Assembly (NCBI GenBank): GCA_951406725.2 | Contig: OX597842.1 | Span: forward strand, 28,830,001-28,894,000 | Direction: 5' to 3' | Origin: Octopus vulgaris | Lineage: Eukaryota | DNA: 64,000 nt | Shown: positions 31,662 through 52,489 of the stretch, piece after piece | Layout: every line of letters begins with the position of its first letter | How positions within the stretch are numbered: position 1 is the stretch's first letter | The notes under the pieces: generated by a model | What the model was told of the DNA's origin: nothing | Seen by the model: only the letters and a program-made list of their open reading frames with translations | The model's database searches: none | Made by a program: the position numbers and the translations under genes

Positions 31662-32031
31662 TTCTACATACAAAATTTAAAAGACTGACCACTAAAAGTG
31701 CACCGTCAACATGCTAGATATAGACACCAAATCGCTATTTTCCACAAAGAATATGTTCTCAAATAAAAACTCAGCACAATACCAAAGCGTTAAAAATAAG
31801 CAAGACAAATGAAAATATACGAAATAAAAATGAGTTACCCATGTACTGAATCAGTTTTGATTATTATTATCCGTAATCTCGTTAGCAAGGATAAACTGTA
31901 ATCTCGTTAGCATGTTCTGTCATTATATTTGAGAACATATTCTTTGTGGAAAATAGCGATTTGACGTCTATATCTAGCATGTTGACTGGGGTACATTTTT
32001 AGTGGTCAGCCCTTTAAATTTTGTATGTAGC
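31662..32031. repeat. ~105-bp inverted repeat pair enclosing a degenerate minus-strand hammerhead
   Basis: CTACATACAAAATTTAAA...GAATATGTTCTCAAATA vs TATTTGAGAACATATTC...TTTAAATTTTGTATGTAG. Confidence 0.8.
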
Positions 32032-32155
32032 TAATATATATATATATATATATTTAGGTAAATATATAATACCATACAGTTTTCTGGTGCATCTAAGTTA
32101 AGTACTGCATTTAAGTGAATTCAATAGAACTCACTTGAATCTTAATTGCTTTTAC

Positions 32156-32193
<38 letters not shown>

Positions 32194-32871
32194 CATACAT
32201 ACTCACACATTATATATTATATATATATATATATATATATCACCCCAATTCTCTTGTTTTCTATCACCGATCACAATCTCTGCGTACACACACACACATA
32301 CATAAACACACACACACATTTACACAAATACACACATTCACACACAAACACATTCAAACACACACATTTATATATATATATAGCAAAGCTTCTCTACTTC
32401 TCTCTCTCTCTCTCTCTCCCTTTCACTCCTTTATACATTCCTGTATAACTCCTGCCTGCTTCTCTTACTCTCTCTAATCTGATACACTCCCTCTCCCACA
32501 AAGTATATAAATCATACGTCACCTCTCTCTCCTTCTCCCCCTTTCTCTCTCACTCTCTCCCTCTTTACCACCTTATATATCCTAATATCCCTCTACCTCT
32601 TTTGTTTTCTCTCCCACGTCAGTATCTCCCTCTCTCTATGTATCAATATCTCTCTTTTCTCTCCGCCTCATATAATATCCTCTCACTATGCCTCTTGCCT
32701 CATACTCTCCTCTTTATGCTAATCATATACACCACTCCCTTGTTACTCCATCTCTACTCATTTTCTATCTTCCTCCCCCCCCTCTCTCTCTCTCTTTGCT
32801 ATCTTCATTTCTCTCAATCTCTTTCTCTCTTTCCCTTCCTATGTCTGTCTGTCTGTCTGCCTGCATGACTG

Positions 32872-32914
<43 letters not shown>

Positions 32915-33689
32915 GAATCACTTCGCTTCTCTTTCAAACTCTTTTTCATTCTTTCTCTCCTCCTTTCTTTCTCTCTCTATCCTGGCAAACGAGAAGACAA
33001 ATATATCAGATGGACTCAATGAATAGAGCCAGCATCCAGTACCTCACTCGAGAAGGGCGGCGACGATTCCCCAGCTTTGCTTAAACTCTGAAAGAGACTT
33101 AGACCGACAGACAGACATCTTGACGTCATGAAACAAGAGGATGCATATTCTGGCGCTTAGAGCCATCTTTTCCGGCACCGTTCAGTTTTGATCGTTTCCC
33201 GAGTGATTCACGCCACCGATGTCGTCGGATGATACTAAGTTCTTGACACCGAGCTACACCACGCCTCCGATGCGGGATCATGTCTTCCGCAAGAATAGAC
33301 GCAACACACCGCAGTGTGGTAGCTGTTCTCTTAAGCAAGTCTCTCCGAACAGAATCGCTGATCCTAAACAGACGATGGTTTACACCTCGTCGAATGAACG
33401 GGCGCCCGGGAGACTGATTGTTTTTTTCGTATCATCGGATGGCAGCGGTGAGCGGACCGATGCTGGATCACCGTTTGAGTGGTTCCAATGACATACGGAC
33501 ACACTCACCATAACCGTCAGGTGTCCGTTGCGGCCCACGAGACATACGGTTTTCAATGTGAGTCGGAGAAGTGGAAGTGAATCAACGACTGGAATTGCAA
33601 TCGAAAAAACACTCAGAAGACGCGACATCTGCTGATTTACTTTATTGCCAACTGAGTTAAACAGTTTTCAATTCGAAATTGTGTTTCAA

Positions 33690-34776: not shown

Positions 34777-34844
34777 CATAGTTGGAAAACTGGGAGAATG
34801 GCTTCATGACTTTCTGAAAGATAGAAGTCAGGTGGTAGTAGCCA
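34777..34844 (+). mobile_element. 5' piece of a split CR1/L2-like LINE RT copy
   Basis: Encodes IVGKLGEWLHDFLKDRSQVVVA, near-identical to the reverse complement of about 4617-4686; continues at 49413. Confidence 0.9.
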
Positions 34845-34851
34845 CCTTAAG

Positions 34852-36519
34852 TGGGGCTTGATGGTTATGACCCACGAACCTTGCAATGGGTGGGTGTTCC
34901 TACTGCTCATCCACTTGGGGTGAACTTACACTAATAACACGTCTTGATACGATTTGTCCCCACCCCACCGAGTTTCGTTGGGGGCAGAAAAGATATAGCG
35001 GTTGGGGGCACCTGCGGTGTCCTATAGGAACACCGGTGTGGGTGGTGTATAGGGGGATATACACCTGCAGTGTCCGATTGGAACATTGGCAGCGAGGTGA
35101 GAGGGTGGATGCACCATCAAGTTTGTCTGGTATGTTATGATCTGCCGGGTTTAACCCGGGAGATGGATGCACTGCCAGGATTCACCCACAGGGACACTAC
35201 CTTGTCGTGGTTTAAGAGCTTACGTCTGCGGGTGGGACGCAAGCCGTTATTGGCCTTGCGGGCGCCAACCCGTCCGCAGACTAACTAAATGTGTCCTTCC
35301 CCCATAGCGGTTCCAATTAATTGGTGGGGACCAAGCAGTGTGGAGGATTATCGTGTGCAGAGTGGGATGATACCCTGCTGGTTGGTCGTGGTTGCGCTTG
35401 TCGGCCTCCTGCTCATCCGGATCGGCCACTACCTGGCATCGGTGTGGTGTGAAGGCCCCCTATTTCTATATTAGAATTTCACGGGGCGGCGCCCACGGAC
35501 GGCCAGGGTCAGAACGGCTGGGTTCGCTCTCCGGATTGGGCTGCTGACGGGGCGAGGTAGGGATGGGGTGCTTCCATCCTGCCTCTTATCTCGCCAAAAG
35601 TTAGCGCCTCGTGAAGGTTGCTGTCCCTGCTGTCCCTGGGTGGCTCACGACATTGTCTCCTGACGCCAGATTGTTGTGGCTCACACATGTTAATGTGGGA
35701 GTGGACTCACTTTTGGCCTCACTACGGGAGCCAGTCAACTGACGGGTAAACCGTCAATAATGAGCCCTGGGTGGTTCACGACATTGTCTCCTGACGCCAG
35801 ATTGTTGTGGCTCACACATGTTAATGTGGGAGTGGACTCACTTTTGGCCTCACTACGGGAGCCAGTCAACTGACGGGTAAACCGTCAATAATGAGCCCTG
35901 GGTGGTTCACGACTTTGTCTCCTGACGCCAGATTGTTGTGGCTCACACATGTTAATGTGGGAGTAGACTCACTTTTGGCCAGCATCCAGTACCTCACTCG
36001 AGAAGGGCGGCGAGGATGCCGGGTAAACTGACGGGTAAACCATCAGTATTGAGCCCTTCGCGGACTGTTGCAGGGTATTTGGCTTGGTATGCGGATTTCG
36101 GTTGGCTAGGGAGGATGTTTGCTTACGGTCTGCAGGGTTTGACTCCTTACTCTTGTACTCTTGATTTTCTTCCTTTTACTCTTGGAAAATGCCGCGAAGT
36201 CCAATTCTTCAACTAAAAGTTAAGAAACACACGGTTGCCAGGGGCCGTATAAGATGGTGGCTTGTGGGCAAAAGAGCGGGTCTCCAAGCCAGGCCGAGCG
36301 TGTTGCCCAACCACGTTGGGCCGATATCAACGCTTCCTGCAGTTGTATAGAGCCATTTACACTGCAGGTAATACTAATGGCTCACATACCTAACTCGACC
36401 CTGATAGTTTCTATCGGATCCTGCACATAAAACCCCCTCGATGAAGTCCTCAAAATTTCTTTTTTTTTTTTTTTTTTTTTTCGAGGACCGAGAGGCTGGC
36501 GTGTAGGATGCCTCTCAAT

Positions 36520-36550
<31 letters not shown>

Positions 36551-36826
36551 AGGTGGCATGGTTTGGGGGCCGTGCCTCGATATGAGCTTAAAATTAAAAC
36601 ATAAGAAAAATTAAAATAACAACCCGGATTAGACTTTCAGCTTCTTCTGCCCATCGAAAAAGCACCCGCTTCGCTGTTAGTTTTAGATCCCCACTACTTA
36701 GGTAGATTTTTGTTTTTTTTTTGTACTTTTTTCTTTTAAGATTAACACAAGCTGGGACCTGGCTGGACAGTGTGGGACAACCCACGTTAAATAAAGGGAA
36801 GGAGACACTATTTAGTCTCACTTAGA
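34852..36826 (+). mobile_element. Non-coding ~2-kb insertion at the exact R2 site of 28S (non-autonomous R2 derivative, SIDE-like)
   Basis: Preceded by 28S CTTAAG (34846-34851) and followed immediately by TAGCCAAATGCCTCGTCATC (36827); no RT ORF. Confidence 0.75.
35634..36057 (+). repeat. Three tandem structured repeats (131, 131, 158 bp) inside the R2-site element
   Basis: Units start CCCTGGG at 35634, 35765 and 35896; internal hairpins such as TGACGG-GTAAA-CCGTCA. Confidence 0.9.
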
Positions 36827-36866
<40 letters not shown>

Positions 36867-36901
36867 CGGATCAACGAGATTCCCACTGTCCCTATCTACT
36901 G

Positions 36902-36936
<35 letters not shown>

Positions 36937-36943
36937 CGGATCG

Positions 36944-36983
<40 letters not shown>

Positions 36984-37700
36984 TTTTGTGAGGGCACACG
37001 GTAGGCGTAGCATAGGCGGTAGCATTCGCGTTGCCCCGCGCCGGGCGCTGCCGTCACCGGCGGCGCGCTGGCGTGCTGTTCGTTGTCCGCACCGTCGCGC
37101 TTCGCGTGCGGCGGTCAGTCTCGTCGGTGCGCCGTGGGCGCCGTCGGCTAAGCGCGTTCGACGTCGGGGTGTCGCGCGCGTTTGCGACGATGAAAAACCG
37201 CCACTTCCGTAGTTTCCTCGCTCACTCGATGGAGAAGGGATCGGGCCGTCGCCGAGCGGTGGTTCATTATCTGGTGCGAAGCGCGCGGTGCATGTCGAGC
37301 GCCTTTGCGGGCGCCGGCGCAGCCGATGCGCGACCCTTAGTCGAGAACAGTGTCGGTCGGGGAGTTTGACTGGGGCGGTACGTCTGTCAAACGGTAACGC
37401 AGGTGTCCCAAGGCGAGCCCAGCGTGGACGGAAACCACACGTCGAGCAAAAGGGCAAAAGCTCGCTCGATCTCGATTTTCAGTACGAATACGGACCGCGA
37501 AAGCGTGGCCCATCGATCCTTTCCAAATTACAGCGGCGAGCTATGCGTCCGCCGAGAGGTGTCAGAAAAGTTATCACAGGGATAACTGGCTTGTGGCGGC
37601 CAAGCGTTCATAGCGACGTCGCTTTTTTATCCTTCGATGTCGGCTCTTCCTATCATTGCGAAGCAGAATTCGCAAAGCGTTGGATTGTTCACCCACTAAC

Positions 37701-37747
<47 letters not shown>

Positions 37748-38390
37748 TCCTACCGATGCATCGCGCGTACGCGGCGCCCCGAGTCGCGTCGGGGTACTCG
37801 GCGTGCGGTCGAGGCGGCGGCGCGCTCGCGCGTCGTCCGTCCTGGCCGTGCCGCCGGCGTTTCTCCGGCCGACCTTAGGCGGGCGTCGGCAACGTCAACT
37901 CGGCTACGGCTATCCCGTCCAGTACGAGAGGTACCGCGGGATCAGAGCAACGGTTTGCGCGCTCGCTCGATAGAGCGGTGGTGCCAGGCTGCCTCTGAGC
38001 GATAACGGCTGAACGCCTCTAAGCCGGAACCGTAGCCGGACCCGAGTTGTTTTCCAAAAGCGTCTCAACCTCAAGGCGCATGCCTTAGCTCGGCGTTCGC
38101 CGTCCGCCCGTCGCGTTCGCCGTCCGCCCGTCGCGTTCGCCGTCCGCCCGTCGCGTTCGCGCGGCGAGCGGCAGCGTCGCCGGCGGAATTGCCATTCGGG
38201 GACGCGGCGGCGACTGCGGCGTTCGCGCCGTAGTCGTCTGCTCGTCGTCCCGCCCCGACTAGTTTGAAGAGATCGAGACGAAAGGGATCGCTTGCATACG
38301 ACCCGACTTGCCGTTCGGAGTGACGTGCTTAGTAGAGCAGCTACCACACTGCGATCTATTGAGTCTCTTCTCGCGAATGACACGATCCGC
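36827..38390 (+). rRNA. 28S: 28S rRNA, 3' portion downstream of the R2 site (orphan copy)
   Basis: TAGCCAAATGCCTCGTCATCTAATTAG, GGGATAACTGGCTTGTGGC, GAGCTGGGTTTAGACCGTCGTGAGACAGG, SRL-like AGTACGAGAGG; 3' end approximate. Confidence 0.93.
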
Positions 38391-38829
38391 CCCTTCGAGG
38401 CGGAGAAGCAGGTGCAGGAGGAGGTGCGAAAGATGGCGAAAGTGTTGCGGCTGGGAGTCGGAGTTACGAAGTGTTGCGTTGCGTTGTGTCTTGTCTTGTC
38501 TGCGGCGATCGACTCGGCGCGCGGTAGTAGTCGTCGCCGTAACCGCCTTCGTCTCGGCCGCCGAATCGAGCGCGCATCGGCTTAGCAGCGCGCGCTCCGT
38601 TGCGGGTTCGTTTAAGTGAGAAGTGGAAGAAACGGCACCTCCTGTTTAGTGCGCGCGTACACGGGGTTGTGGCGCCAGCATGCGGCATTCCGGCCGTTCG
38701 TAACCTCCTGCACCGCCGACGAGTTGTTGCTCGTCGGCATCGGGCCCGAGCCCCGGTCTCGCGCAGCGACGGACAGAGTCTGAGTAGTACGCGGCGGACA
38801 CCGCGAGTGCGGGTTGTCGAAGCGGCGAG

Positions 38830-39062
38830 TTCTCGGCATCGTCGTCCGATTGGCGAGGCGCCGCGTGAACGGATCGAAGGCGAGGAGCGTGTCCCTGTCT
38901 ACTGTCTAGCGAAAGCAGAGCCGAGGGTACGGGCTTGAAGAAGTTCTCGGTATCGAGCGCGGGTAAACGGCGGGAGTAACTTCGACTCTCTCAACGGATC
39001 GAAGGCGACGAGGATATTCCCGCTGTCCCTATTTACTACTGTCTAGCGATAGCAGAGCTGAG
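38830..39062 (+). other. Degenerate rearranged copies of the 28S R2-target region within the IGS
   Basis: AGCGCGGGTAAACGGCGGGAGTAACTTCGACTCTCT at 38956-38991 and two TGTCCCT.T.TACTGTCTAGCGA copies. Confidence 0.85.
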
Positions 39063-39099
39063 TTACGACGAAGACCACGAGTGTGTGTTATCGACGCGA

Positions 39100-41190
39100 T
39101 CGAAGCGGCGATTTCACGTGCCTGGTATATCGAACGAACGCACCTAAGCTCGCGGTGTCGCCCACGGGCACCTGGACGTAGCCACGACCTATGCCGCAAG
39201 GATGTCACGAGATACACGCGGTCGATGGGGCGACGTGGTCCGTCGCGTGAATTCCCGAAAGATGACAAACTGCGGCCAGTGCAGGTATTGGCGGGCCTGC
39301 GCCAGTCGCGCGGAGCTCCGCCGCGCTGCCGTGCCCGATCTAGTGAGGCTGAAGCGAACATCAGGCTCTCGCCCACGTCAACGTGGACGTAGGCGCGATC
39401 GATGGCGTCAGTCTCCGTGGGCGTGTGGCGATACGCACCGGGTAAATGGAGCGACGTGGTCCGACCCGTAAGTCGAAGGAATCAGACCCGTATGCTTACG
39501 GGTCGGCCCCGGCTGGATAGTCACGCTCTAGGTGACCGCCGCACCCCAAGGGGGTCAAGACTATATTGAGGGCTTGCAGTCGGCAGGTGGATGTCTCCGG
39601 GACCGTTCGGAAGGCCTGCGCCGGTCGCCCGTTGCTCCGCCGCCCTACCGTGCCCGAAATCGAAAGAACGAACCTAAGCCCGCGGTATGGCCCACGTACA
39701 CGTGGACGTAGCCGCCACCGATGCCGGAAGGCGTTCACGAGATACCCGCGCTCGATACGGCGACGTGGTCCGTCCCGTAAAATCCCGAAAGATGACAAAC
39801 TGCGTCTAGCACTAGGTAGCGGCAGGCCTGCGCCAGGCCTGCGCCGGTCGCCCGAGTCTCCGCTGCCCTACCGTGCGTGAAATCGAGAGCACGAAACTAA
39901 GCGAGCGGTATCGCCCACGTACGCGTGGACGTAGCCGCGACCGATGTTGCGAGGTACAGGCGTTCGATACGGCTACGTGGTCCGTCCCGTAAATTCCCGA
40001 AAGATGACAAACTGCGGCCAGTGCAGGTATCGGCCGATAGCGGCGGGCCTGCGTCCGCCTTCGCCCGCGCCTCTGCCCGCCTTCGCCCGCGACTCCGCCG
40101 CGCTATTGCGAGGCTGAAGCGCGCCTTAAGCTAAACTTGCGCTCTCGCCCACGTACACGTAGACGTAGGCGCGATCGATGCCGTCAGTCGCCGGGAGTGC
40201 GTGGGGATATGCACCGGGTAAAAACAGCGACGTGGTCCGACCCGTGAGTAGGAGAAGGTGCTCGGACCGTGAGCAAACGGATCGGCCCCGACTGGATAGG
40301 TGACCGTCGCACCCCAAGGGGGTCAAGACTATATTGAGGGCTTGCAGTCAGCAGGTGGATGTCTCCGGGACCGTTCGGCAGGATGCCCGAGACGTTAGCC
40401 TAAGACGACGTCAGCCCGGCGGGTGGCCGCCGCCTTCGCGCCGCCTCGCTTTCTCCGTTAGTCCACGCGCAGCGGGGACGTTGGCGGCAGGCCTGCGCCT
40501 GTCGCCCGTTCCTCCGCCGCGCTACCGTGCCCGAAATCCAAAGAACGAACCTAAGCTCGCCGTATGGCCCACGTACGCGTGGACGTAGCCGCCACCGATG
40601 CCGGAAGGCGTTCACGAGATGCACGCGGTCGATACGGCGACGCGGTCCGTCCCGTAAAATACCGAAAGATGACAAACTGCGGCTAGCACGAGGTAGCGGC
40701 GGAAGGCCTGCGCCGGTCGCCCGCGTCTCCGCCGCCCTACCGTGCGTGAAATCGAAAGCACGAACTTAAGCGGGCGGTCTCGCCCACGTAAGCGTGGACG
40801 TAGCCGCGACCGATGTCGCGAGGTGCGGGCGTTCGATACGGCGACGTGGTCCGTCCCGTAAATTTCCGAAAGATGACAAACTGCGGCCAGTGCAGGCAAC
40901 GGCCGATAGTGGCGGGCATGCGCCCGCCTTCTACCGCCTTCGCTCGCAGCTCCGCCGCGCTACGGCGAGGCTGAAGTGGAGCTTAAGCGAAACTTGCGCT
41001 CTCGCCCACGTACACGTGGACGTAGGCGCGATCGATGCCGTCAGTCGCCGGGTGTGCGTGGCGATATGCACCGGGTAAAAACAGCTACGTGGTCCGACCC
41101 GTGAGTAAGGAGGTGCTGGGACCGTAAGCAAACGGATCGGCCCCGGCTGGATAGTCACGCTCTAGGTGACCGTCGCACCCCAAGGGGTTC
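39100..41190 (+). repeat. rDNA IGS subrepeat array (~220-bp subunits within ~0.8-0.85-kb higher-order units)
   Basis: GTGGACGTAGCC...GTGGTCCGTCCCGTAAA..CCGAAAGATGACAAACTGCGGC occurs five times; GGTGACCG.CGCACCCCAAGGGG occurs three times. Confidence 0.9.
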
Positions 41191-41215
41191 CAGACTAATA
41201 TGTAGGGTTGTGGTT
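41140..41215 (+). promoter_or_regulatory. Putative RNA Pol I gene promoter/initiation region, with spacer-promoter duplicates at about 39510-39575 and 40285-40345
   Basis: Repeated block ends in AGACTATATTGAGGG twice and AGACTAATATGTAGGG in the last copy before the unique ETS; resembles invertebrate TATA..RGGG Pol I start sites; inference. Confidence 0.5.
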
Positions 41216-42535
41216 GATCGGCATAGGTTACCGTCTCGGAGGGATGTCCTCGTAGCTCCTTTTCTGACGACGGTTAGCTCCCCGTTTGCCGGTGCAAGAT
41301 CGACTCTACACGGCCGGCGCGTCCTCGAATTTCCGCCGCCGAACCGCCCGCCTTTCAGACGCTGCGTTCGCCCGCCCGTTGACGCCCGCGTTTGCCCGCC
41401 TTCGCCCGCCTTTTGAAGCTCGCCTTCATCCGCCTTCGCCCGCCTCTGGACGTCCGCTTCTTCACGCCCGCCTATTAGACGCTGCGTTCTACCCGCACCT
41501 TTCGACGCACGCCTTCGCCCGCCTTCGCCCGCCTTCGCCCGCCTTCGCCCGCCTCCGAACATCCGGAGGCGGGCGAAGGCTGGCGCGTCCTCGAATGTCT
41601 GCCGCCGCCGCCACACCGCCCGTCTTTCAGACGCGCTCCCTCGACGCCCGCGTCTGCCCGCCTCTTCACGCCCGCAGGTTCGTCCTCTCGCAATCGAACC
41701 GCTTCTCGTTACCGCGTTTTTTTTTCTTCCGACCCCCGGCCTCGTCTTCGCAGCCGAGGACCCGGTCAGGTTACGCCGCTGACCTCGTGTTGCGTCGCCG
41801 CCGGCGCGGCGGACGGGCTAGCCGTCGCTTCCCGTTCCCCCACAGGCGACGCGGCGTCTCCGAAAGAGAGCGGTGCCGTGTCTGTCCCCTTCTTCCCTAG
41901 ACAGAACCGTGGCTTCAACTCCGGGTTTCGCTGCCTCGTAGCGTTTCTGCAGCTTTTTTTTCCCTTCCCGGCATCACCCCGCCTTGGCGCGCGTCGTTTT
42001 CGTGGCGACCACCGTCATGGCATTCGCTCGTTGACCGCAGTCCGGACGCAGTTCGTCGCAGCCGTTTCGAAAGGATCAGGTGGAGGAAGCGACGACGACC
42101 ACCGACGCATAGGGCGCCGGGCGAGTCTAAAAGCTGCAGCGGGCCCGCGCCAATCGCCGCTGCCCCTCTCGTCTGCCGACCTAGTCGCTGGCCTTCTTCG
42201 CCTTCTCCTCCTCTTCCGCCCGTAACCGGCCCCACTTCAAATCGACCCGCACCGGAGCCCGTCCGCAGCGGCCCCGGTGTGCGGCAGTCGGATCGCAAAC
42301 CGCTTTTGCTCCGCGAACGCTTCTTCGCGCGTCGACTCGTGTTGTTTTCGCCTCTTTTCCTCCTCGGGGAGGAGGCGCGCGCGTATACGAACGGCGGCCG
42401 AACTCGTGAGCGCCCGTGCCCCTGTTTTCGGCCCCTCCGATTCCTTTCGTTCTCGTTTTCGTTTCCGATCGTCGGCGCTGCTTCCCGAGCTTCCGCCGCC
42501 GCCGCGCATCGTTCTCTCGAAACGTACGTCGGTGA
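41216..42535 (+). other. 5' external transcribed spacer (includes GCCCGCCTTC-type short repeats)
   Basis: GC-rich unique sequence between the last promoter-like block and the 18S start. Confidence 0.65.
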
Positions 42536-44155
42536 TACCTGGTTGATCCTGCCAGTAGTCATATGCTTGTCTCAAAGCTTAAGCCATGCAAGTGTAAGTT
42601 CATGCCGTAAACGAATGGTGAAACCGCGAATGGCTCAGGAACCGGACCTAATCCTCGGGACCGTATTCTTCCACCGCGAGGAGAGTGGATAACTGTGGCA
42701 ATTCTAGAGCTAATACATGCAACCGAAGCCGCGATCGCACGTCGCACCCGGGTGTCGGGCTCGAAAACGGCGTTCGGCAGCCGTCGCGTCTTCGCCGTCG
42801 TTCGCCGCCGGCGTCCGCTCGGCCGGTTCGGGGGCGGCGCATCCGCGCCCGTCCCTCCCGGTCGCGACGATACGGTCGGCCTTCCGCATTGGTCGCGGCG
42901 CAAATATTAGACTGAGACCGACGCGTTCGGGCCGTCGCAGCCGCCGCCGCGCCTTCCGCGCGCGGGTCTTAGGCGTGCGGCGGCTTCACGCCCTTCGATT
43001 TTGGTGACTCTGGATAACTGTCAGTACGATCGCACGGGCTAGTATCGCACTAGCCTTCGCGCGACGGGTCCCCCGCGAGTCCGCCCTATCAACTGTCGAC
43101 GGCCCGGTCAGTGCCGACCGTGGTGGCAACGGGTAACGGGGAATCAGGGTTCGATTCCGGAGAGGGAGCATGCGAAACGGCTGCCACATCCAAGGAAGGC
43201 AGCAGGCGCGCAAATTACCCACTCCCGGCACGGGGAGGTAGTGACGAAAAATAACGACGCGGGACTCTGTCGAGGCCCCGCGATCGGAATGAGTACACTT
43301 CAAATCCGTTAACGAGAATCGACCGGAGGGCAAGTCTGGTGCCAGCAGCCGCGGTAATTCCAGCTCCGGTAGCGTATATTAAAATTGTTGCGTTTGAAAA
43401 GCTCGTAGTCGGAATTCGGGTCTCGAAAACGTGCCCCAGCACGTTCGGGGCGACGGCGCCGTCGCAGGCGCGCTTCTGGCGCGTCCGCTTCGGTCGTCCG
43501 TTCGCACTCCCGGCCCTATTCGCGACTCGGCACCCCGTCCAGCGCTCGTCTTCGCCCGCGCCGCGTCGCGTCCGGTTTCACGCCTGCGCCTTCAACGGCG
43601 CGGGTCGGTCAGGCGCGCGCGGGAGCCACGAGGCGGGTGCGCTATTGGGCGTCGTCGCCGTTCGCGTTCTAGCGGTAGTAGCGCGTCCATCTCCCGGTCG
43701 TTTCGGCCCGCACGGTTCCTCCGAGGGTGCTCTTCGCCGAGTGTCCGAGGCGGCCGGTACGTTCACTGTGAAAAAATTAGAGTGCTCAGAGCGAGCCCCG
43801 CCGGCTTGCATACGAAAAGCATGGAATGATGGAAAATGGCCTCGTCCGCGCGTCATCCGTCGGTCTCCGTTCACGACGAGGCAATGATCGAAGGGAGCGA
43901 TCGGGCCACTCGTATTGCGACGTTAGAGGTGAAATTCTTGGATCGTCGCAAGACGCACTGCAGCGACGGCGTGTGGCAAGCACGTTTTCCTCGATCAAGA
44001 GCGAAAGTCGGAGGTTCGAAGACGATCAGATACCGTCGTAGTTCCAACCGTAAACGATGCCGACTAGCACTCTGCGAGTATTCGCTTCGATGACCCGGCG
44101 GGGAGCCTGCGCGGGAAACCATAGTCGGTTCCGGGGGGAGTATGGTTGCAAAACA

Positions 44156-44201
<46 letters not shown>

Positions 44202-44880
44202 GCGGCTTAATTTGACTCAACACGGGAAAACTCACCCGGTCCGGACACCGGTAGGATTGACAGATCGATAGCTCTTTCTCGATTCGGTGGATGGTGGTGC
44301 ATGGCCATTCTTAGTTGGTGGAGCGATCCGTCTGGTTGATTCCGATAACGAACGAGACTCCGGCCTGCTAATTAGCGCGTCGATTAGTGCTTTTCCGGTA
44401 GCGCGGCGGAGCCGAAGCCGTCGTCGGTAGCTCCGCGCGCGGCCCGGGCTTGCCGTTGCCGCCGCTCTCCTTCGCGTCCGGCGCTGCGGCCGCGTCCGGC
44501 TGCCGTCCCCCTCGCGGGGGCCGTCGCGGCGTGGTTGCGGCGTCGGTTGCGGAGCGGCGGCGGTGACCCGTCGGCTCGGCCCGCGCGAGCCCGGCGGCGG
44601 CACGCCGACGCGTCCGGGCCAGTCGGTTGGCGAACGCAGCGCTTCTTAGAGGGACGGGCGGCAGAAAGCCGCACGAGGCGGGGCGATAACAGGTCTGTGA
44701 TGCCCTTAGATGTCCGGGGCTGCACGCGCGCTACACTGGAGGTATCAGCGGGCGCGTCTCCCCCGGCCCGAGAGGGTCGGGAAACCTCTGAACCACCTCC
44801 CGTGATAGGGATCGGGGCCTGGAGCCAACCCCGTGAACGAGGAATTCCCGGTAGGCGCGGGTCATCAGCCCGCGTCGATC

Positions 44881-44923
<43 letters not shown>

Positions 44924-45080
44924 GGAACGGTCCGGTGAGGTCCTCGGATCTGGCCGACGAGTCCGCTTACGCGCGGCGGCGTTCCGCGCCGTCGTCGGCA
45001 TTCCGCGCCGTCGTCGGCGTTCCGCGCCGTCGTCGGCGCGTTCTCTGATGGCCCGGAGAAGACGACCGAACCCGATCGCT

Positions 45081-45138
<58 letters not shown>
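42536..45138 (+). rRNA. 18S: 18S rRNA (expanded, about 2.6 kb)
   Basis: TACCTGGTTGATCCTGCCAGTAGTCATATGC start; GTGCCAGCAGCCGCGGTAATTCC; TTGTACACACCGCCCGTC; GTAGGTGAACCTGCGGAAGGATCATTA end. Confidence 0.97.
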
Positions 45139-45567
45139 GCGCCGTCTTCTTTCGAAAACGCAAACTTGCGATCCGCCCAATTTCTTCCAAGTCGCGGCCG
45201 GGCCCCCTCGCCCGAGTACCACCGAATGCTCTTGTTTCGGCCCTCTAACAGCGCAGCAGTAGCAGTCGCGGCAGCCCGCCGACACGCCGCACTCTCTGCT
45301 GCCGACCGCGCAACCACCCTGCCGGCGTCGGCCCGCCCTCATGGCGCTCGGACGACGGGGCTTGCACGCTTTGCGAGCTCCATGACCATTTCTCTCTTCC
45401 TTCCTACCTCGCCGTTGGCGTCGGCAGTGGCGCGCTTCGTTCCGCTGTCGACGCCTACGAATTTTATTTTAATTTTTCCGTCGCGCGGCGGCGGCCTCCT
45501 GTCGGGGGCCGCTGCCGCTTTCCTTTTTCTGTACGTGTAGCGTGTAGTAGTAGTAGCAAATATACCG
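45139..45567 (+). other. ITS1
   Basis: Lies between the 18S end and 5.8S start. Confidence 0.85.
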
Positions 45568-45728
45568 AAACCCTGGACGGGGGATCACTCGGCTCGTCCG
45601 TCGATGAAGAGCGCGGCTATCCGCGTGAACTGATGCGAATTGCAGGACTCAGTGAACATCGACACCTCGAACGCACATTGCGGCCCCGGGATCCTATCGT
45701 CCCGGGGCCCCGTCTGGTCGAGAGGCGG
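45568..45728 (+). rRNA. 5.8S: 5.8S rRNA
   Basis: GGATCACTCGGCTCGTCCGTCGATGAAGAGCGC...GAATTGCAGGAC..GTGAACATCGAC..CTCGAACGCACATTGCGGC; ends approximate. Confidence 0.93.
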
Positions 45729-46201
45729 TCAAGACACGAAAACGCAGTCCGCCGCGGCCGTTGGCTGCGGCGGGGAGTCGGGAGTCGCAGGAAAGGGCGG
45801 CGCTCGCCGCGAGGCCCGCATTATCTCGCGCGCGTGCCGCCGCCGCTCGATCGTCCGTCTCCCGTAATGCCAGACCGTCATCGTTGCGAAGCGCTGTTGC
45901 GGAGGAGGGAGCCCGCCGACGAGCGGAAGCAGAGGAGTAAGGATGATCAGTAGCAGGAACGACAACGGCGGCGACACGGCGAGGCCCCTCGTCCCTCCGC
46001 GTCCTCCTCTACGTTCCCCTCCGAGCAACCGCCGCCCTCCGTCGCCGTCGCTGCCGCCGCCGCCTCGTCTTTCGGCGTTCGCTCTGTGGGAATATCTCTT
46101 TCGTGCGAGCGTTCGTGCCGATCGACAGCGGTGGTGCGCCGGTAGCAAGCTGCGGCAGCCGTCTCTTTTGCAGCGGGGAACTCTTCCTTTTTTTTCACGC
46201 T
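45729..46201 (+). other. ITS2
   Basis: Lies between 5.8S and 28S. Confidence 0.85.
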
Positions 46202-47439
46202 GCCCTCGACTCGGACGCGATTACCCGCCGAACTTAAGCATATCGCTAAGCGGAGGAAAAGAAACCAACCGGGACTCCCTAAGTAACGGCGAGTGAACCG
46301 GGAGAAGCCCAACGCCGAATCTCGTCGGTCGCAACGGTCGTCGAGAGCTGTGGCGCAAGGGTCGTACACGGTCGATCGTTTCGCCCGGCTAGGTTCGGAG
46401 TCCCCTCGATCGGGGCTGCCCAGAGCGGGTGCCAGGCCCATTCGGAGCCGGCGGCGATCGGCGGTGTTCATCGGCCCGAGAGTCGGGTTGCTTGGGAACG
46501 CAGTCCAAAGCGGGTGGTAAACTCCATCTAAGGCTAAATACGGGGACGAGTCCGATAGCCGACAAGTACCGCGAGGGAAAGTTGAAAAGAACTTTGGAGA
46601 GAGAGTTCAAGAGACCGTGAAACCGCCCAGGGGTAAACGGGTAGGACCGCTCACCGCGATCGCGAGGCGACTCAGTCCGCTGCTTCCCGCCGAGGCGCCG
46701 TCGTCGTCGACGAACGCGCCGGTGGCGGCCGCTCGTTCCGCGGGCGGAGGTCTGCCGCCTCGTCGGCGTTCGATTTCCGGGGCGCCGGCATCGGACGCAC
46801 TTCCCCTCCGATCCGTCGTCGCGACTCGTTTCCCGTCGGGCCGGTAGGCGCGCGGCGTCCGCAGGTCGCAGACGAGAGCCCCGTCGCTGCCGCGCAAGCG
46901 GCGGTCGGTGGGATCCACGCGCTCTTCTCGACCGGGCCCGTCGCTCCACGTAAAGCGCAGGCACGGCTAACCGACGGAGACGGGCAAACGCACCTCGCCC
47001 TTAGCACGAACGACGCAGCGAGTCGCGCGCGGCCTCTTCGGAGGTCGTGAGCGACGCGGCCGCCCGCGCGCCGCGACTGCGCGGAACCCTCGCAAGGGGG
47101 CGACGCGCGTTGCGGTCGCCGTACACCCCGCCCGAAAAGCCGCCCGCTGCTGCCGGTCAGCGACGAGCATCGGCAACCTACCCGACCCGTCTTGAAACAC
47201 GGACCGAGGAGTCCCAGTCGACTGCGAGTCGTTGGAGCCTTTCACTTCGCGAACTCCGACGGCACAGCGAAAGCGAGACGGCGCTCTGACTCAGGTGTAG
47301 CAGGCGGCCGGGGACCCGAAAGATGGCGATCCACGCCCGGTCGGGACGAAGCCAGAGGAAACTCTGGTGGAAGTCCGAAGCGCCTCTGACGTGCAAATCG
47401 ATCGTCGGAACCGGGTGTTGGGGCGAAAGACCAATCAAG

Positions 47440-47485
<46 letters not shown>

Positions 47486-49334
47486 CGCCAGCGGGAGAAT
47501 GACACGCAATTCCGTCCGGTAAAGCGAACGACTGGAGGCCCCGGGGACGTTGACGGCCTCGATCTACTGTCGAACTCGGGACGGGCGAAACGGGCCGCTC
47601 CTCTCCCGATCGGAGGCGGCCGCCGTTATGCGACGACGAATGCACGGTGCCAAGTGGGCCACTTTTGGTAAGCAGAACTGGTGATGTGGGATGAACCGAA
47701 CGTCCGGCTAAGGTGCCCTACGCTTCACCCATTAGATCCCCGAAAGGGTGTCGGTCGATATAGACAGCAGGACGGTGGCCACGGAAGTCGGAATCCGCTC
47801 AGGAGTGTGTAACAACTTACCTGCCGAATCGACCGGCCCCGAAAATGGATGGCGCTGGAGCGAGCGACCGATGCCGGACCGGCCGGGCGACAGGTTGCGC
47901 GATCGCCGGCGAGGCGACTTTCCGATGCCCGGTCGAGTAGGAGGGCGCCGCGGCGTGCATGGAAAGCCGCGGGCGCGAGCCCGGGTGAAGCCGACCGCGG
48001 GTGCAGATCTCGGTGGTAGTAGCAAATATTCGAACGAGACCTTCGAAGACCGAAGTGGAGAAGGGTTCCGTGCCAACGGTGGTCGAGCACGGGTCAATCG
48101 GTCCTAAGAAGCGGGCGAAAGCTTCCACGAAAGGCGCCGGATCCGTCGTTAGAAAACAAGTACTACTCCCATAGTTCGACGTAAGTTACGCGGCCGGCCT
48201 CGCATCGAAAGGGAATCGGGTTAATATTCCCGAACCCGAACTCGGAGAGTGCCCGTCCGTCGGTGGGAACGCGGCATGCTCTTCCTAGCAGCGCGTCCGT
48301 CGTCGAAGCCGGCGGCCGGGCGAAGCAGCGGCAACGCAAGCGAGCCCGGAGACGTTGCCGGGAGCCCCGGGAAGAGTTCTCTCTTCTTCGTAAAGGACCG
48401 CGTCCGTGGAATCGGCTCGTCCGGAGATACGGATATGGTACCTGTAGAGCGCCGCGTCTCGGGCGGCGTCCGGTGCGCTCTCGGCGACCCTGGAAAATCC
48501 GGGTCCGTAACGAATCGCAGCTCTCGAGTCGGTCCGTACCCACCATCCGCAGCAGGTCTCCAAGGTATACAGCCTCTTGTCGATAGCGCCAATGTAGGTA
48601 AGGGAAGTCGGCAAAATGGATCCGTACCTTCGGAAGAAGGATTGGCTCCGAGGACCGAGTCGGTCGGGCCGTGTGTGTCGCCTCGCTCCCGCGCGGTCGC
48701 GTCGCCGTTCGCTCGGCGTCGCGCCGCCGGGCGCCGGAACACGTCTTCACGCGAAGCGGCGGACCGGTACAGGGCTGTAGCGTTGGCGTCGGACTCGGCA
48801 TCCCGGTGCGCCCCATTTTTCCGACGGTCGTCGCTGCGTTGGCGGGCAACCCGCTTCGCCCCGATGCGCGGTCGCGCCTTCGGTCAACGCGGGTCGGCTT
48901 CTACGCACGCGTTCTCTCCCTCCGCTGCGCTGCGTTCTGTCGCGTGCCGCCGCCTACGGACCTCTCGGTCCGGAAAGAGCGCGCGTTGCTGGGACGTCGT
49001 TGCGGCTGCCAGATCCGCGCGCGTGGCCTTCTCGTGCGTCGGCACGTGCGCAGGCCGTCGTTCGTTGCGGTGGCTCGGTTTCATACGGGGCGCCCGGGGC
49101 GTAGTGGGCGCGAACAAAACGATTCCACACACGGGACGCCGTGGAGCGACACGGCTTCGGGCTCGCCGTCGCGTCCGTGCGCGCACGGCTCGGCTCCGCA
49201 AGGGGTCGGTCGTCGTCGCGCGACAGGCGTTCGGCCGGCGGCGAACGGTCGACTCGGAACTGGTACGGACCGGGGGAATCCGACTGTCTAATTAAAACAG
49301 AGCATCGCGTAGCCGGCCGAGCCGCACAGACGCG

Positions 49335-49366
<32 letters not shown>

Positions 49367-49412
49367 AGTGAAGAAATTCAACCAAGCGCGGGTAAACGGC
49401 GGGAGTAACTAT
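46202..49412 (+). rRNA. 28S: 28S rRNA, 5' portion, ending 13 nt upstream of the R2 site
   Basis: ACCCGCCGAACTTAAGCATATC, GACCCGTCTTGAAACACGGACC, and terminal AAGCGCGGGTAAACGGCGGGAGTAACTAT. Confidence 0.95.
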
Positions 49413-50091
49413 TTAACATGCAAACAGTGAGCGGTGTTCCACAGGGCACTGTTTTGGGACCACTACTGTTCATAATGGCCCTCTCAGACATGCCCTCAGC
49501 CACACAGAGAGCCACAATCACAAGTTATGCAGATGATACAAAAGTTTCACAGGCAATACAGAACCCTGAGGACACTAAACGCCTGCAATGTGAGCTGGAC
49601 AAAATATACAAGTGGGCTGAAAAGAATAGCATGCAGTTCAATGCTGAAAAGTTTCAAGCTTTATACTATCAGCATGCAAAACTAAATGCAATACCCAATG
49701 AATACACTGGACCCAGAGGAATAGCAATCCCAGAAGCACAATCAGTGCGTGACCTGGGTATTTACATGAGTGATGACGCAACCTTTCGTGTACATGTTGC
49801 TAAATTGGCAATGAAATATAGACAACTGGCCGGATGGATTCTTAGAACCTTTAGAACAAGAGAACAAGAAACCATGATGGTCCTCTGGAAGACACTTGTC
49901 CTAAGCCACTTTGACTATTGCTCTCAGCTATGGTCACCATCCAGTGTCAAGTTGATCACAGAACTTGAGGCGATCCAACGTAGCTACACGAAGAAGATAA
50001 CCTCTGTGCAGAATGTAAGCTACTGGGAAAGACTCAAGAGATTAAAGCTCTATTCCTTGGAGCGTAGGCAAGAAAGATATGCCATAATATA
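49413..50091 (+). mobile_element. Continuation of the split CR1/L2-like LINE RT
   Basis: ORF 49418-50110 (SGVPQGTVLGP...YADD...LYSLERRQERYAII) resumes the RT broken at 34844. Confidence 0.93.
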
Positions 50092-51730
50092 CACTACCGT
50101 CAGAAATTAATTAGCACCCTTGATTTTCTCTTCACTCAAGGTATTTGCTGTCACCTAGTGGCCATATCTCGAACTATTGCTTTGTTGTGAGTTCACTGTT
50201 GCGCAGAACGATGACGTAACTTTGTTTGCAGAGCAGTTTGAGAGTCTACAGCCTAATGATGTTGACATAGCAGTGCAACAACAACTTGGAGTGCGGATGC
50301 AGACAAATCTTCCTTTGTTTAATAGATATAGGTAGCGCCTCGCAAGGACCGAAATCACACCGTACTAAGTTTTCTCATCGCGTAAGACATTTTGAACAGC
50401 TCGTAGGTTAAATGATTTGTGTATTTGCAAGATTTTTTTCCTCACAAATTCTCCTACACTCTGCTTGATGACGTCACTTCTGGTTCACAAAACTTTCTGT
50501 TAAACATCAAATAAGGTGAGAAATTCTGCTTTCTTTCTTTTTTGTTTAATGAATAATAACTCATAGCAGTTTTGTTATAGCATAACATTATTCAAATGAA
50601 TAGTTTTAATGAAAATAACTGGTTTTTATCGTTCATTCCTAGATAGGCCCAAGACCTCGCATGACCTTGGAGAGATGGTACGAGGCTCTCTCGTGGCGTG
50701 GGAAGCTGTCGGAGGCTGCAATAGCCAGAAAACTTGGTGTAGCCAGGCGCACAATTCAGTGCTTATTTAAGAAATACGAGGAAACTGGATCAGCAGCTGA
50801 CAAAAAGGGTAGGGGACGGAAGAGGCTGACGACCCAGCGGGAGGACCGGATGCTGATCCGAAAGTCGCTGTACAACCGAAGGGCAACGAGCCAGCAACTG
50901 GCGGAGGAGATGCAAAAGATGACAGGGAAGCAGTTGTCTACAACCACCGTCAAGACCAGATTACTGGAAGCTGGTCTAAAATCCTGTAGGGCCGCTCCTT
51001 ACAGCCCAAAACTGGAAGAGGCGGCTGCTCTGGGCCCGTGCCCACAAGACATGGACCGTGCAGCAGTGGTGGACAGTGATGTTCACTGACGAGTCGCGAT
51101 TCAGTCTCGTCAGTGACAAGCCTGTCCATGTGCGACGCCGCAGGGGTGAGTGCTTCAACAAAGACTGCATTGCTCTCACCATGAAGCATAGTGGGGGTGG
51201 TCTGATGGTGTGAGGGGCGTTCAGCTACAGTGGTGTTGGGCGGTTCTATGCCGTCGAAGGCAACATCAACGCAGCAAAGTGCGTTGAGATAATACGGGAT
51301 ACCTCTTTGGTGGCGAGGAGTACGTGCTCCAACAGGACAACGTGCCTTCCCACACAGCCAAGCTCACAACCGGTTTCTTCAAGGACCATGGGGTGACAGT
51401 CATGGACAGGCCTGGCCAGTCACCTGACCTGAACCGACACTAGCTGTTTGGGGCACTTCTTGCTGCATGGAGGGCCATCCCTGCACAGTACCTGCAGGCA
51501 CTCATAGACAGCATGCCGACCCGCGTAGCAGCTGTCATTGCTGCCAAAGGAGGAGCAACAAGATATTGACTAAATTTCACGATTAATAACAATTATGTGG
51601 TGTGCTGGGATATGTTTTAATAAATTTTTGATTATAAACGAGTTCGTTTCTGATAATAAGTTAATTAAATTAAGAAAATGTAAGAAAATGTAGAAATTTG
51701 AGAAGTGCTAATTAATTTCCGACGCAAGTG
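50092..51730 (+). mobile_element. Tc1-like DNA transposon (defective transposase), TA target duplication
   Basis: TA|CACTACCGTCAGAAATTAATTAGCAC ... GTGCTAATTAATTTCCGACGCAAGTG|TA; HTH ORF 50661-51089, FTDESRF, QQDN and SPDLN motifs; frameshift, stop and deletion of the catalytic Glu region. Confidence 0.92.
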
Positions 51731-51762
51731 TACATCTGGAAGATCCTTGAAGGACTTGTCCC

Positions 51763-52141
51763 AATAAAAACTCAGCACAATACCAAAGCGTTAAAAATAA
51801 GCAAGACAAATGAAAATATACGAAATAAAAATGAGTTACCCATGTACTGAATCAGTTTTGATTATTATTATCCGCAAGGATAAACTGTAATCTCGTTAGC
51901 ATGTTCTGTCATTATATTTGAGAACATATTCTTTGTGGAAAATAGCGATTTGACGTCTATATCTAGCATGTTGACGGTACATTTTTAGTGGTCAGCCCTT
52001 TAAATTTTGTATGTAGAAATATATATATATATATATTTAGGTAAATATATAATACCCTACAGTTTTCTGGTGCATCTAAGTTAAGTACTGCATTTAAGTG
52101 AATTCAATAGAACTCACTTGAATCTTAATTGCTTTTACTGA

Positions 52142-52172
<31 letters not shown>

Positions 52173-52251
52173 CATACATACATACTCACACATTTATATT
52201 ATATATATATATATATATATACATACATACATACATACATACTCACACATT

Positions 52252-52326
<75 letters not shown>

Positions 52327-52489
52327 CCCAATTCTCTTGTTTTCTATCACCGATCACAATCTCTGCGTACACACACACACACACACACACACATTTACAC
52401 AAATACACACATTCACACACAAACACACACATTTATATATATATCGCTAAGCTTCTCTCTCTCTCCCTTTCACTCCTTTATACATTCCT
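51763..52489 (+). repeat. Copy of 31762-32442 inserted into the LINE
   Basis: Near-identical sequence; LINE codons ...GLVP|NFGIES... are split around it. Confidence 0.9.

What the first reader, a model, noticed from the sequence alone, without database searches (positions are those of the whole stretch)
34852..36826. Non-coding 2-kb element occupying the exact R2 site (non-autonomous R2 derivative or new 28S parasite)
Seen: precise placement between 28S CTTAAG and TAGCC; no RT or endonuclease ORF; GC-balanced and hairpin-rich; no poly(A) at the 3' junction. Known: short internally deleted R2 elements (SIDEs) are described in Drosophila. Inference: this is a larger mollusc equivalent mobilised in trans. 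The 5' end (34846-34940; AAGTGGG/TCCACTT, GTGTT...CTAAT-AACAC) has some HDV-ribozyme-like features, but I could not fold it unambiguously.
Basis: partly seen in the sequence, partly recalled or inferred. Interest (0 to 1): 0.72.

Follow-up and report, generated by a model that had tools for sequence, protein, structure and literature searches.

The report
Protein-free R2 hitchhiker in ribosomal DNA
This 2-kb insert in a ribosomal RNA gene is one of at least a dozen copies of a cut-down R2 jumping gene that has lost its protein but kept both ends, including a predicted self-cutting RNA, so it likely spread by borrowing the enzyme of intact R2 elements, a design already described in a fruit fly.

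Summary
The element (34851-36826) is real and has no long reading frame. It is an internally deleted R2: colinear at 66-84% with a co-resident 5.3-kb R2 lineage (R2-B), keeping the 5' UTR, the decayed first ~65 codons and the 3' UTR, and lacking about 3.6 kb of coding sequence. Twelve copies span the same deletion; 11 near-full ones are 81-99% identical, and 5 end exactly at the R2 site. The HDV-like ribozyme core lies at 35192-35296, not at 34846-34940. Its P1 helix borrows seven 28S bases and covaries in four versions, and stray copies begin at the predicted cut. Two corrections: upstream of CTTAAG lies a LINE, not 28S, and this copy has lost the first two P1 bases, so it is probably dead. 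It heads a whole rDNA unit, opened at the R2 site, that sits inside the LINE. Three copies end in a degenerate second R2 target in the rDNA spacer. Only a different lineage (R2-A) has intact frames in the assembly. Verdict: a new, larger member of the R2 SIDE kind. The scan found this family before on another copy (e1-8663805).

The parts
34851..36826 (+). Non-autonomous, internally deleted R2 element (SIDE-like), 1,976 bp in this copy (1.58-1.80 kb in the 10 others aligned)
34844..34850 (+). Place of the ribozyme P1 5' strand (28S-derived CTCTTAA in intact copies); here only the last five bases remain, giving 5 of 7 pairs
34851..35191 (+).
35192..35296 (+). Predicted HDV-like ribozyme core: P2 35192-35197 with 35291-35296; P3 35199-35201 with 35209-35211; L3 35202-35208; P1 3' strand 35212-35218; one-pair P1.1 G35204-C35219; P4 35224-35281; J4/2 CTAA 35285-35288 (C35285 inferred to be catalytic)
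35634..35980 (+). 131-bp tandem repeat, 2.6 copies (2 copies of 113 bp in the closest subfamily, none called in the others)
35978..36020 (+). 43-bp stretch 95% identical to window 33028-33070, absent from the C9 copy and from most aligned copies; likely picked up after insertion
36181..36384 (+). Relic of the R2 ORF start (ATG at 36189; 66% to R2-B bases 1145-1353); a stop follows within about 80 codons in all 11 copies and frames differ between subfamilies
36424..36826 (+). R2-derived 3' UTR with T-tracts; terminal hairpin 36772-36785, AGGGAA 36795-36800 and a last hairpin 36802-36819; the first two are shared by R2-A, R2-B and the element
36827..38388 (+). 3' part of 28S, starting at the exact R2 nick position
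38850..39060 (+). Degenerate duplicate of the R2 target region in the 3' spacer; a version is in 4 of 4 array units examined and three element copies end in it
38389..49412 (+). Rest of the permuted rDNA unit: spacer, 18S (42536-45138), 5.8S (45569-45727) and the 5' half of 28S, ending six bases short of CTTAAG
34777..34844 (+). Left piece of the LINE RT fragment that the block interrupts
49413..50093 (+). Right piece of the same LINE RT fragment (Pfam RVT_1); about 15 LINE bases are lost at the break and there is no target-site duplication

Best explanation
The element is a protein-free, internally deleted derivative of an R2 retrotransposon lineage, present in at least 12 copies, that likely spread by borrowing R2 protein made by full-length elements. 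Shown: it keeps the 5' UTR, a decayed ORF start and the 3' UTR of an R2-B-like ancestor and lacks about 3.6 kb with the zinc fingers, RT and endonuclease; copies sit at the R2 site of 28S or at a look-alike of it in the spacer. Inferred cycle: it is co-transcribed with the rRNA precursor. The HDV-like ribozyme pairs its P1 3' strand with seven upstream 28S bases and would cut about 9 nt before the R2 site, freeing the RNA. [quoted passage not shown]
For: Colinearity with R2-B in order, 5' UTR 73-78%, ORF start 66%, 3' UTR 67-84%. R2 identity of the partner lineage: R2-A protein hits solved R2 proteins at E 4e-157 to 8e-89; R2-B is 40-60% identical to R2-A across most of its length. Twelve full matches across the deletion junction, 80-96% to this copy; 11 aligned copies form subfamilies at 80.8-99.0%. 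Independent-looking insertions: exact 28S 3' junction in 5 of 11, spacer look-alike in 3 of 11, head-to-tail behind an R2-B or another copy on C18, unique DNA on C15, and 5' duplications on C14 and C15. Ribozyme: 98.6% of 280 cells pair in P2, P3, P1.1 and P4, against 26-50% when slid. P1 appears in four matched versions (CTCTTAA/TTAAGAG, CTCTTAC/GTAAGAG, CTCTTTC/GAAAGAG, CTCTCTT/AAGAGAG); 124 of 147 Watson-Crick pairs against a shuffle mean of 92.5, reached in 0 of 10,000 shuffles. In 8 of 14 junctions with a whole P1 strand, likeness to 28S stops within 1 base of the predicted cut. The core varies in 6 of 53 columns against 391 of 1,146 elsewhere (p 3e-4), and the 3' motif in 4 of 20. The family is in DNA contigs of three further organism labels, covering 28-29 of 30 bins.
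Against: No intact R2-B frame was found: the longest open frame among R2-B-like matches was 728 aa, and only the two R2-A copies reach 1,276 and 1,311 aa (117 of 476 candidates scored). R2-A shares only the ribozyme core and a 35-nt 3' motif with the element. None of the 7 assembled array units seen on C20 holds the element (6 empty, 1 with R2-A); all copies are in scattered rDNA fragments. The closest subfamily (97.7-99.0%) has 28S flanks 98.6-99.3% like the array, which DNA-level copying would also give. The predicted first P1 pair is C-G and P1.1 has one pair, unlike the HDV consensus as I recall it; cleavage was not tested. About 850 bp of the middle has little detectable likeness to R2-B. 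Shuffle and Fisher tests treat related copies as independent, so their p-values overstate.
Confidence: 0.87

Rival explanations
1. [quoted passage not shown]
For: Nine of 11 copies touch rDNA and lie in scattered fragments. The window copy itself moved inside an rDNA block. A single-copy internal deletion of R2-B exists on C9, so such deletions arise without spreading. No intact R2-B was found. Precedent: PMC4370867 (passages).
Against: Copies sit at different targets and show 5' duplications that restart at the predicted cut. P1 changed on both sides within the family (CTCTTAA to CTCTTAC). Core and 3' motif are conserved beyond the rest. Elements differ by up to 19% while their 28S flanks differ by about 1-7%.
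Confidence: 0.09
2. An rDNA parasite of separate origin (a SINE-like or novel RNA) that only captured R2 ends.
For: The first 250 nt and about 850 bp of the middle have little likeness to R2-B; the fly SIDE also has an unrelated middle (PMC3414825).
Against: Five R2-B-like blocks lie in the same order, including the ATG region, which a SINE would not need. Rfam at E up to 10 found no tRNA, 5S or 7SL head.
Confidence: 0.03
3. An assembly artefact that joined unrelated pieces at the rDNA edge.
For: rDNA is hard to assemble, and I could not test the LINE junctions against reads.
Against: Twelve diverged copies on nine contigs; matching contigs in other runs, one with the same 3' junction; the LINE pieces continue in register on both sides.
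Confidence: 0.01

Closest known systems
R2 SIDE of Drosophila willistoni (R2Dwi_SIDE; Eickbush and Eickbush 2012, PMC3414825; parts 1, 2 and 4 of 6 read)
   Same: Sits in the R2 site; 5' HDV-like ribozyme plus R2 3' UTR; no ORF; an unrelated middle; 64-81% like its autonomous partner; old lineage.
   Different: Three to four times longer (1.6-2.0 kb against 529 bp); keeps a relic of the ORF start; P1 borrows 28S bases; no poly(A); copies are 81-99% alike rather than within 3%; also uses a spacer look-alike of the target; cleavage is not yet shown.
R2 ribozymes that cut in upstream 28S (Eickbush et al. 2013, PMC3774820; parts 2-5 of 7 read)
   Same: 28S bases form the 5' strand of P1; long J1/2 (23 to over 700 nt reported; 328-341 here); changes at the junction can be carried in the RNA; shifts of P1' move the cut.
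   Different: Predicted cuts at -9 (element) and -11 (R2-A, R2-B) with a C-G first pair and a single G-C P1.1 pair; four P1 versions coexist in one genome.
Degenerate R2Br(deg) of Bacillus rossius (PMC4370867; passages)
   Same: Non-coding R2 copies that multiplied in rDNA.
   Different: That element is near full length, cannot self-cleave and is thought to spread by rDNA turnover; this family is internally deleted and shows selection on the ribozyme.
Mollusc R2 of the Pacific oyster (Kojima et al. 2016, PMC5035012; passages)
   Same: R2 in Mollusca, partly outside 28S.
   Different: Autonomous; the main text has no mention of octopus, cephalopods or non-autonomous elements.

Membership tests
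R2 SIDE | Inserted at the R2 site of 28S | tested here: met
   Exact 3' junction in 5 of 11 copies including this one; 28S on both sides in 3 of 11. This copy's 5' flank is a LINE.
R2 SIDE | 5' end folds as an HDV-like ribozyme | tested here: met
   Rfam models did not detect it, so it rests on a descriptor and covariation.
R2 SIDE | Ribozyme self-cleaves from a 28S co-transcript | not testable with these tools
   Indirect only: 8 of 14 junctions start within 1 base of the predicted cut. This copy has 5 of 7 P1 pairs.
R2 SIDE | 3' end homologous to an R2 3' UTR | tested here: met
   67-84% blocks against R2-B; terminal hairpin shared across 23 ends.
R2 SIDE | No coding capacity, by internal deletion | tested here: met
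   Longest stop-free stretch 93-180 aa in 11 copies; about 3.6 kb missing.
R2 SIDE | Several copies with junction variation typical of target-primed reverse transcription | tested here: met
   Twelve copies; 5' deletions, duplications and tandem insertions.
R2 SIDE | An autonomous partner able to supply protein | tested here: inconclusive
   Intact frames only in R2-A (2 copies); R2-B matches all broken; the rDNA array is under-assembled.
R2 SIDE | Recent activity (near-identical copies in the active array) | tested here: inconclusive
   One subfamily is 97.7-99.0% alike, but 0 of 7 array units seen carry it.
Autonomous R2 | Single long ORF with zinc fingers, RT and endonuclease | tested here: not met
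SINE (Pol III) | Head derived from tRNA, 5S or 7SL RNA | tested here: not met
   No such Rfam match at E up to 10; ARAGORN was not run.

The most novel reading that the evidence does not exclude
The R2 system of this animal does more than copy itself. It moves whole rDNA units: the 14.6-kb block at 34845-49412 begins and ends within 2 bases of predicted ribozyme cuts (-9 and -11), as expected of a unit-length read-through RNA cut by ribozymes in two neighbouring units and reverse-transcribed into a LINE, or of an rDNA circle opened by the R2 nuclease. In addition, each array unit carries a second, degenerate R2 target in its spacer, where R2-B and its hitchhiker can land without breaking 28S. 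Together these would explain the scattered rDNA fragments and the long survival of a non-autonomous R2.
Probability: 0.25. Interest if true: 0.72.

Novelty: new member of a known kind. Interest (0 to 1): 0.5.

Why it matters
R2 SIDEs were called rare and short-lived in Drosophila, and my searches of the library found them described only there. An old, multi-subfamily SIDE shared by several related species would show that the design recurs in distant animals. The family is a natural minimal R2 template: it marks which 5' and 3' RNA parts R2 protein needs, a question for R2-based gene insertion. Four P1 versions in one genome make the model of shifting cleavage sites (PMC3774820) directly testable. 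The R2-opened rDNA unit and the spacer target bear on how rDNA fragments get scattered.

Tried and rejected
Ribozyme at 34846-34940: it folds as a plain hairpin and has no P3/L3/J4/2; rejected. Rfam scan for a known ribozyme family: none. R2-A as the parent: only a 35-nt match; rejected as parent, kept as a possible current donor. A closer autonomous parent: none among 41 loci compared; small fragments on C6, C10, C16 and C17 are 78-80% alike but carry no R2 ORF. The C9 internal deletion of R2-B as a second family: only 1 of 41 matches spans its junction, so it is single-copy. An empty site for the C15 copy: not found among fetched loci. An exact search for the window's version of the spacer target found 5 places and none in the array; the array carries a variant. 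Expression: no RNA holder listed on record; one run guessed to be RNA has short low-depth contigs, which is no evidence either way. Protein search gave 91 relatives at 27-43% identity, none named from a cephalopod. Paper searches for octopus or cephalopod R2 gave 0 papers; one search gave nothing relevant among the 15 of 128 listed; one search was seen as a listing only. Host taxon was not tested.

Full report
Observation. The element runs from 34851 to 36826 and ends exactly at the 28S sequence TAGCC. It has no ORF of 120 aa or more; the longest stop-free stretch is 93 aa and GC is 0.50. Its first 809 nt fold better than 20 of 20 shuffles (z -3.7). The 5' flank is not 28S. Only CTTAA(G) is 28S-like; 34777-34844 is a LINE RT fragment whose continuation starts at 49413 (RVT_1). 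Between them lie the element, the 3' part of 28S, spacer, 18S, 5.8S and the 5' half of 28S, which stops at 49412, six bases short of CTTAAG. The block is one rDNA unit, circularly permuted at the R2 site. About 15 LINE bases are lost and nothing is duplicated.

Family. A search of the own genome gave 60 matches (40 of 50 candidates scored). Twelve places, this one included, span the internal junction in full, plus one partial match. I aligned the 11 near-full copies and left out the one truncated at both ends (C1:148.63 Mb). They are 1,584-1,976 bp, 80.8-99.0% identical and fall into subfamilies; this copy is 92% like the closest one. 3' junctions: exact R2 site in 5 of 11 (window, C9, C27, C1a, C1b), a spacer look-alike of the target in 3 (C14, C18a, C20), 28S about 185 bp further on in 1 (C16), another copy in 1 (C18b), unique DNA in 1 (C15). 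C9, C1a and C1b have true 28S on both sides. C14 and C15 carry 5' duplications. None of the 7 array units seen on C20 carries the element: 6 are empty and 1 holds a full R2. Twenty of 24 listed public runs, from 11 studies and five organism labels, hold part of it, none more than 39% of the words. Contigs of three other labels cover 28-29 of 30 bins of a sister copy at 82% likeness or more, and one contig of a fourth run carries the same 3' junction.

Parent. Two R2 lineages live in this genome. R2-A is 4,751 bp with a 1,276-aa open frame in the C20 array and matches solved R2 proteins at E 4e-157; a second copy has 1,311 aa. It shares with the element only a 35-nt 3' motif and the ribozyme core. 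R2-B is about 5.3 kb, 40-60% identical to R2-A in protein, in tandem clusters on C18 and C29. The element is colinear with it: element 253-293 and 299-484 match B 31-71 and 116-309 (78%, 73%), 1330-1533 match B 1145-1353 around the ATG (66%), and 1573-1630 and 1857-1950 match B 4931-4988 and 5144-5235 in the 3' UTR (84%, 67%). The B stop codon is at 4895, so about 3.6 kb of coding sequence is gone. The first 250 nt and about 850 bp of the middle show little likeness. Among 73 matches to the R2-B C-terminal part, no R2-B-like frame exceeds 728 aa (117 of 476 candidates scored, and the array is under-assembled).

Ribozyme. Rfam found none. An HDV-type descriptor, built from my recall of the fold, found one core at 35192-35296, shared by the element and R2-B (it also gave several chance hits without conserved context, which I set aside); the R2-A core was aligned to it. 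On 20 aligned cores, 98.6% of 280 cells pair in P2, P3, P1.1 and P4, against 26-50% when slid; only 2 of 14 pairs change on both sides, and the structure was drawn from these sequences. The stronger test is P1, whose strands lie 130-370 nt apart. Taking the 7 bases before each element head without regard to pairing, 21 of 34 core rows had a head (13 were dropped: cut loci, truncated copies or R2-A heads). They give 124 of 147 Watson-Crick pairs, against a mean of 92.5 and a maximum of 112 in 10,000 shuffles, in four matched versions; related copies inflate this. In 8 of 14 junctions with a whole P1 strand, likeness to 28S ends within 1 base of the first P1 base, in unrelated DNA or inside 5' duplications (junctions that stop inside P1, like this one, were excluded by the search). 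That is what reverse transcription of an RNA cut there would leave. The core varies in 6 of 53 columns across the 11 copies, against 391 of 1,146 elsewhere. Borrowing 28S bases for P1, long J1/2 loops and cuts 9-36 nt upstream are known for R2 (PMC3774820). The window copy keeps 5 of 7 P1 pairs and lacks the pair at the cut, so it is probably inactive.

3' end. There is no poly(A), as in the R2 copies here. Twenty-three ends share a six-pair hairpin followed by an A-rich stretch and AGGGAA; only 1 of the 6 pairs changes on both sides, so support is conservation more than covariation. The motif varies in 4 of 20 columns against 158 of the last 276. That it binds R2 protein is inferred from the role of R2 3' UTRs (PMC3414825).

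How this copy got here. One random break in a 14.6-kb circle would fall within 10 bp of the R2 site about 0.14% of the time (my arithmetic), so the R2 system is likely involved. The left end starts 2 bases after the element's predicted cut and the right end stops 2 bases before the predicted cut of R2-A or R2-B. A DNA cut at the R2 nick followed by trimming explains the right end but not the CTTAA kept on the left, unless the substrate was a circle. A read-through RNA fits both ends but would have to include the spacer and be copied over 14.6 kb. I cannot separate these. The block's 28S differs from the array by 59 substitutions in 2,131 bp and 17 in 1,562 bp, while two array units differ by 2 in 2,199, so the event is old.

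Second target. About 2.1 kb after the true site, the spacer holds a degenerate copy of the target region (38850-39060). A version is present in 4 of 4 array units examined. Three element copies and the C9 deleted R2-B end in it, and the C14 copy has it on both sides. Copies with true 28S on the left and spacer on the right could also come from later deletions.

Comparison. The match is the R2 SIDE of D. willistoni (PMC3414825). All defining features that can be tested here are met, except a proven donor and recent activity, which are open. Searches for other SIDEs and for octopus or cephalopod R2 found no further description, and the survey that first reported mollusc R2 does not mention octopus in its main text. 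The library lacks most subscription papers, and Repbase and supplements were not seen. The scan had already reported this family and its ribozyme from another copy and had noted the rDNA block; my reading was written down before I saw those notes. 'Octopus' comes from those notes and from recall, not from a test.

Verdict. Interest 0.5.

Noticed in passing
window 34845-49412: A whole rDNA unit, permuted at the R2 site and headed by the element, interrupts a LINE; about 15 LINE bases lost, no duplication; both ends within 2 bases of predicted ribozyme cuts.
   Followed up: partly
window 38850-39060; L062, L064, L065, L068: Degenerate second R2 target in the 3' spacer of array units, used by element copies and bordering R2-B copies.
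   Followed up: partly
L069:1116-5866 (minus); L084:3795-8377: Two full-length R2-A copies with open frames of 1,276 and 1,311 aa; one in the C20 array, one outside rDNA on C5.
   Followed up: partly
L089-L092, L105 (C18 79.80-79.85 Mb); L086, L087, L094 (C29 25.64-25.70 Mb): Head-to-tail clusters of R2-B copies with broken frames; two element copies follow an R2-B in tandem on C18.
   Followed up: partly
L101:1166-3003: A separate, single-copy internal deletion of R2-B (1.84 kb) with nearly the same architecture as the family.
   Followed up: yes
L078, L082, L123, L124, L104, L127: Further R2-like ends and fragments (other 3' ends at the R2 site; heads with a CTCTTTC-type P1) that point to more lineages.
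   Followed up: no
window 35978-36020 and 33028-33070: A 43-bp stretch inside this copy matches a site 2.9 kb upstream and three places on C4, C9 and C31.
   Followed up: partly
window 31762-32442 and 51763-52489: A roughly 700-bp stretch is repeated on both sides of the rDNA block (95% over 478 bp), about 20 kb apart; it holds an imperfect palindrome.
   Followed up: no
window 50120-51730: A Tc1/mariner-like transposon by eye (short inverted ends at 50087-50117 and 51705-51735) follows the right LINE piece; not tested.
   Followed up: no
window 33275-33350: An inverted 76-bp fragment like the 3' end of 28S (82% to 38313-38388) lies upstream of the block.
   Followed up: no
window 36758-36826: The element's last 30 bases resemble the 28S sequence just upstream of the target (Rfam LSU match, E 7e-6), which might favour tandem insertion.
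   Followed up: no
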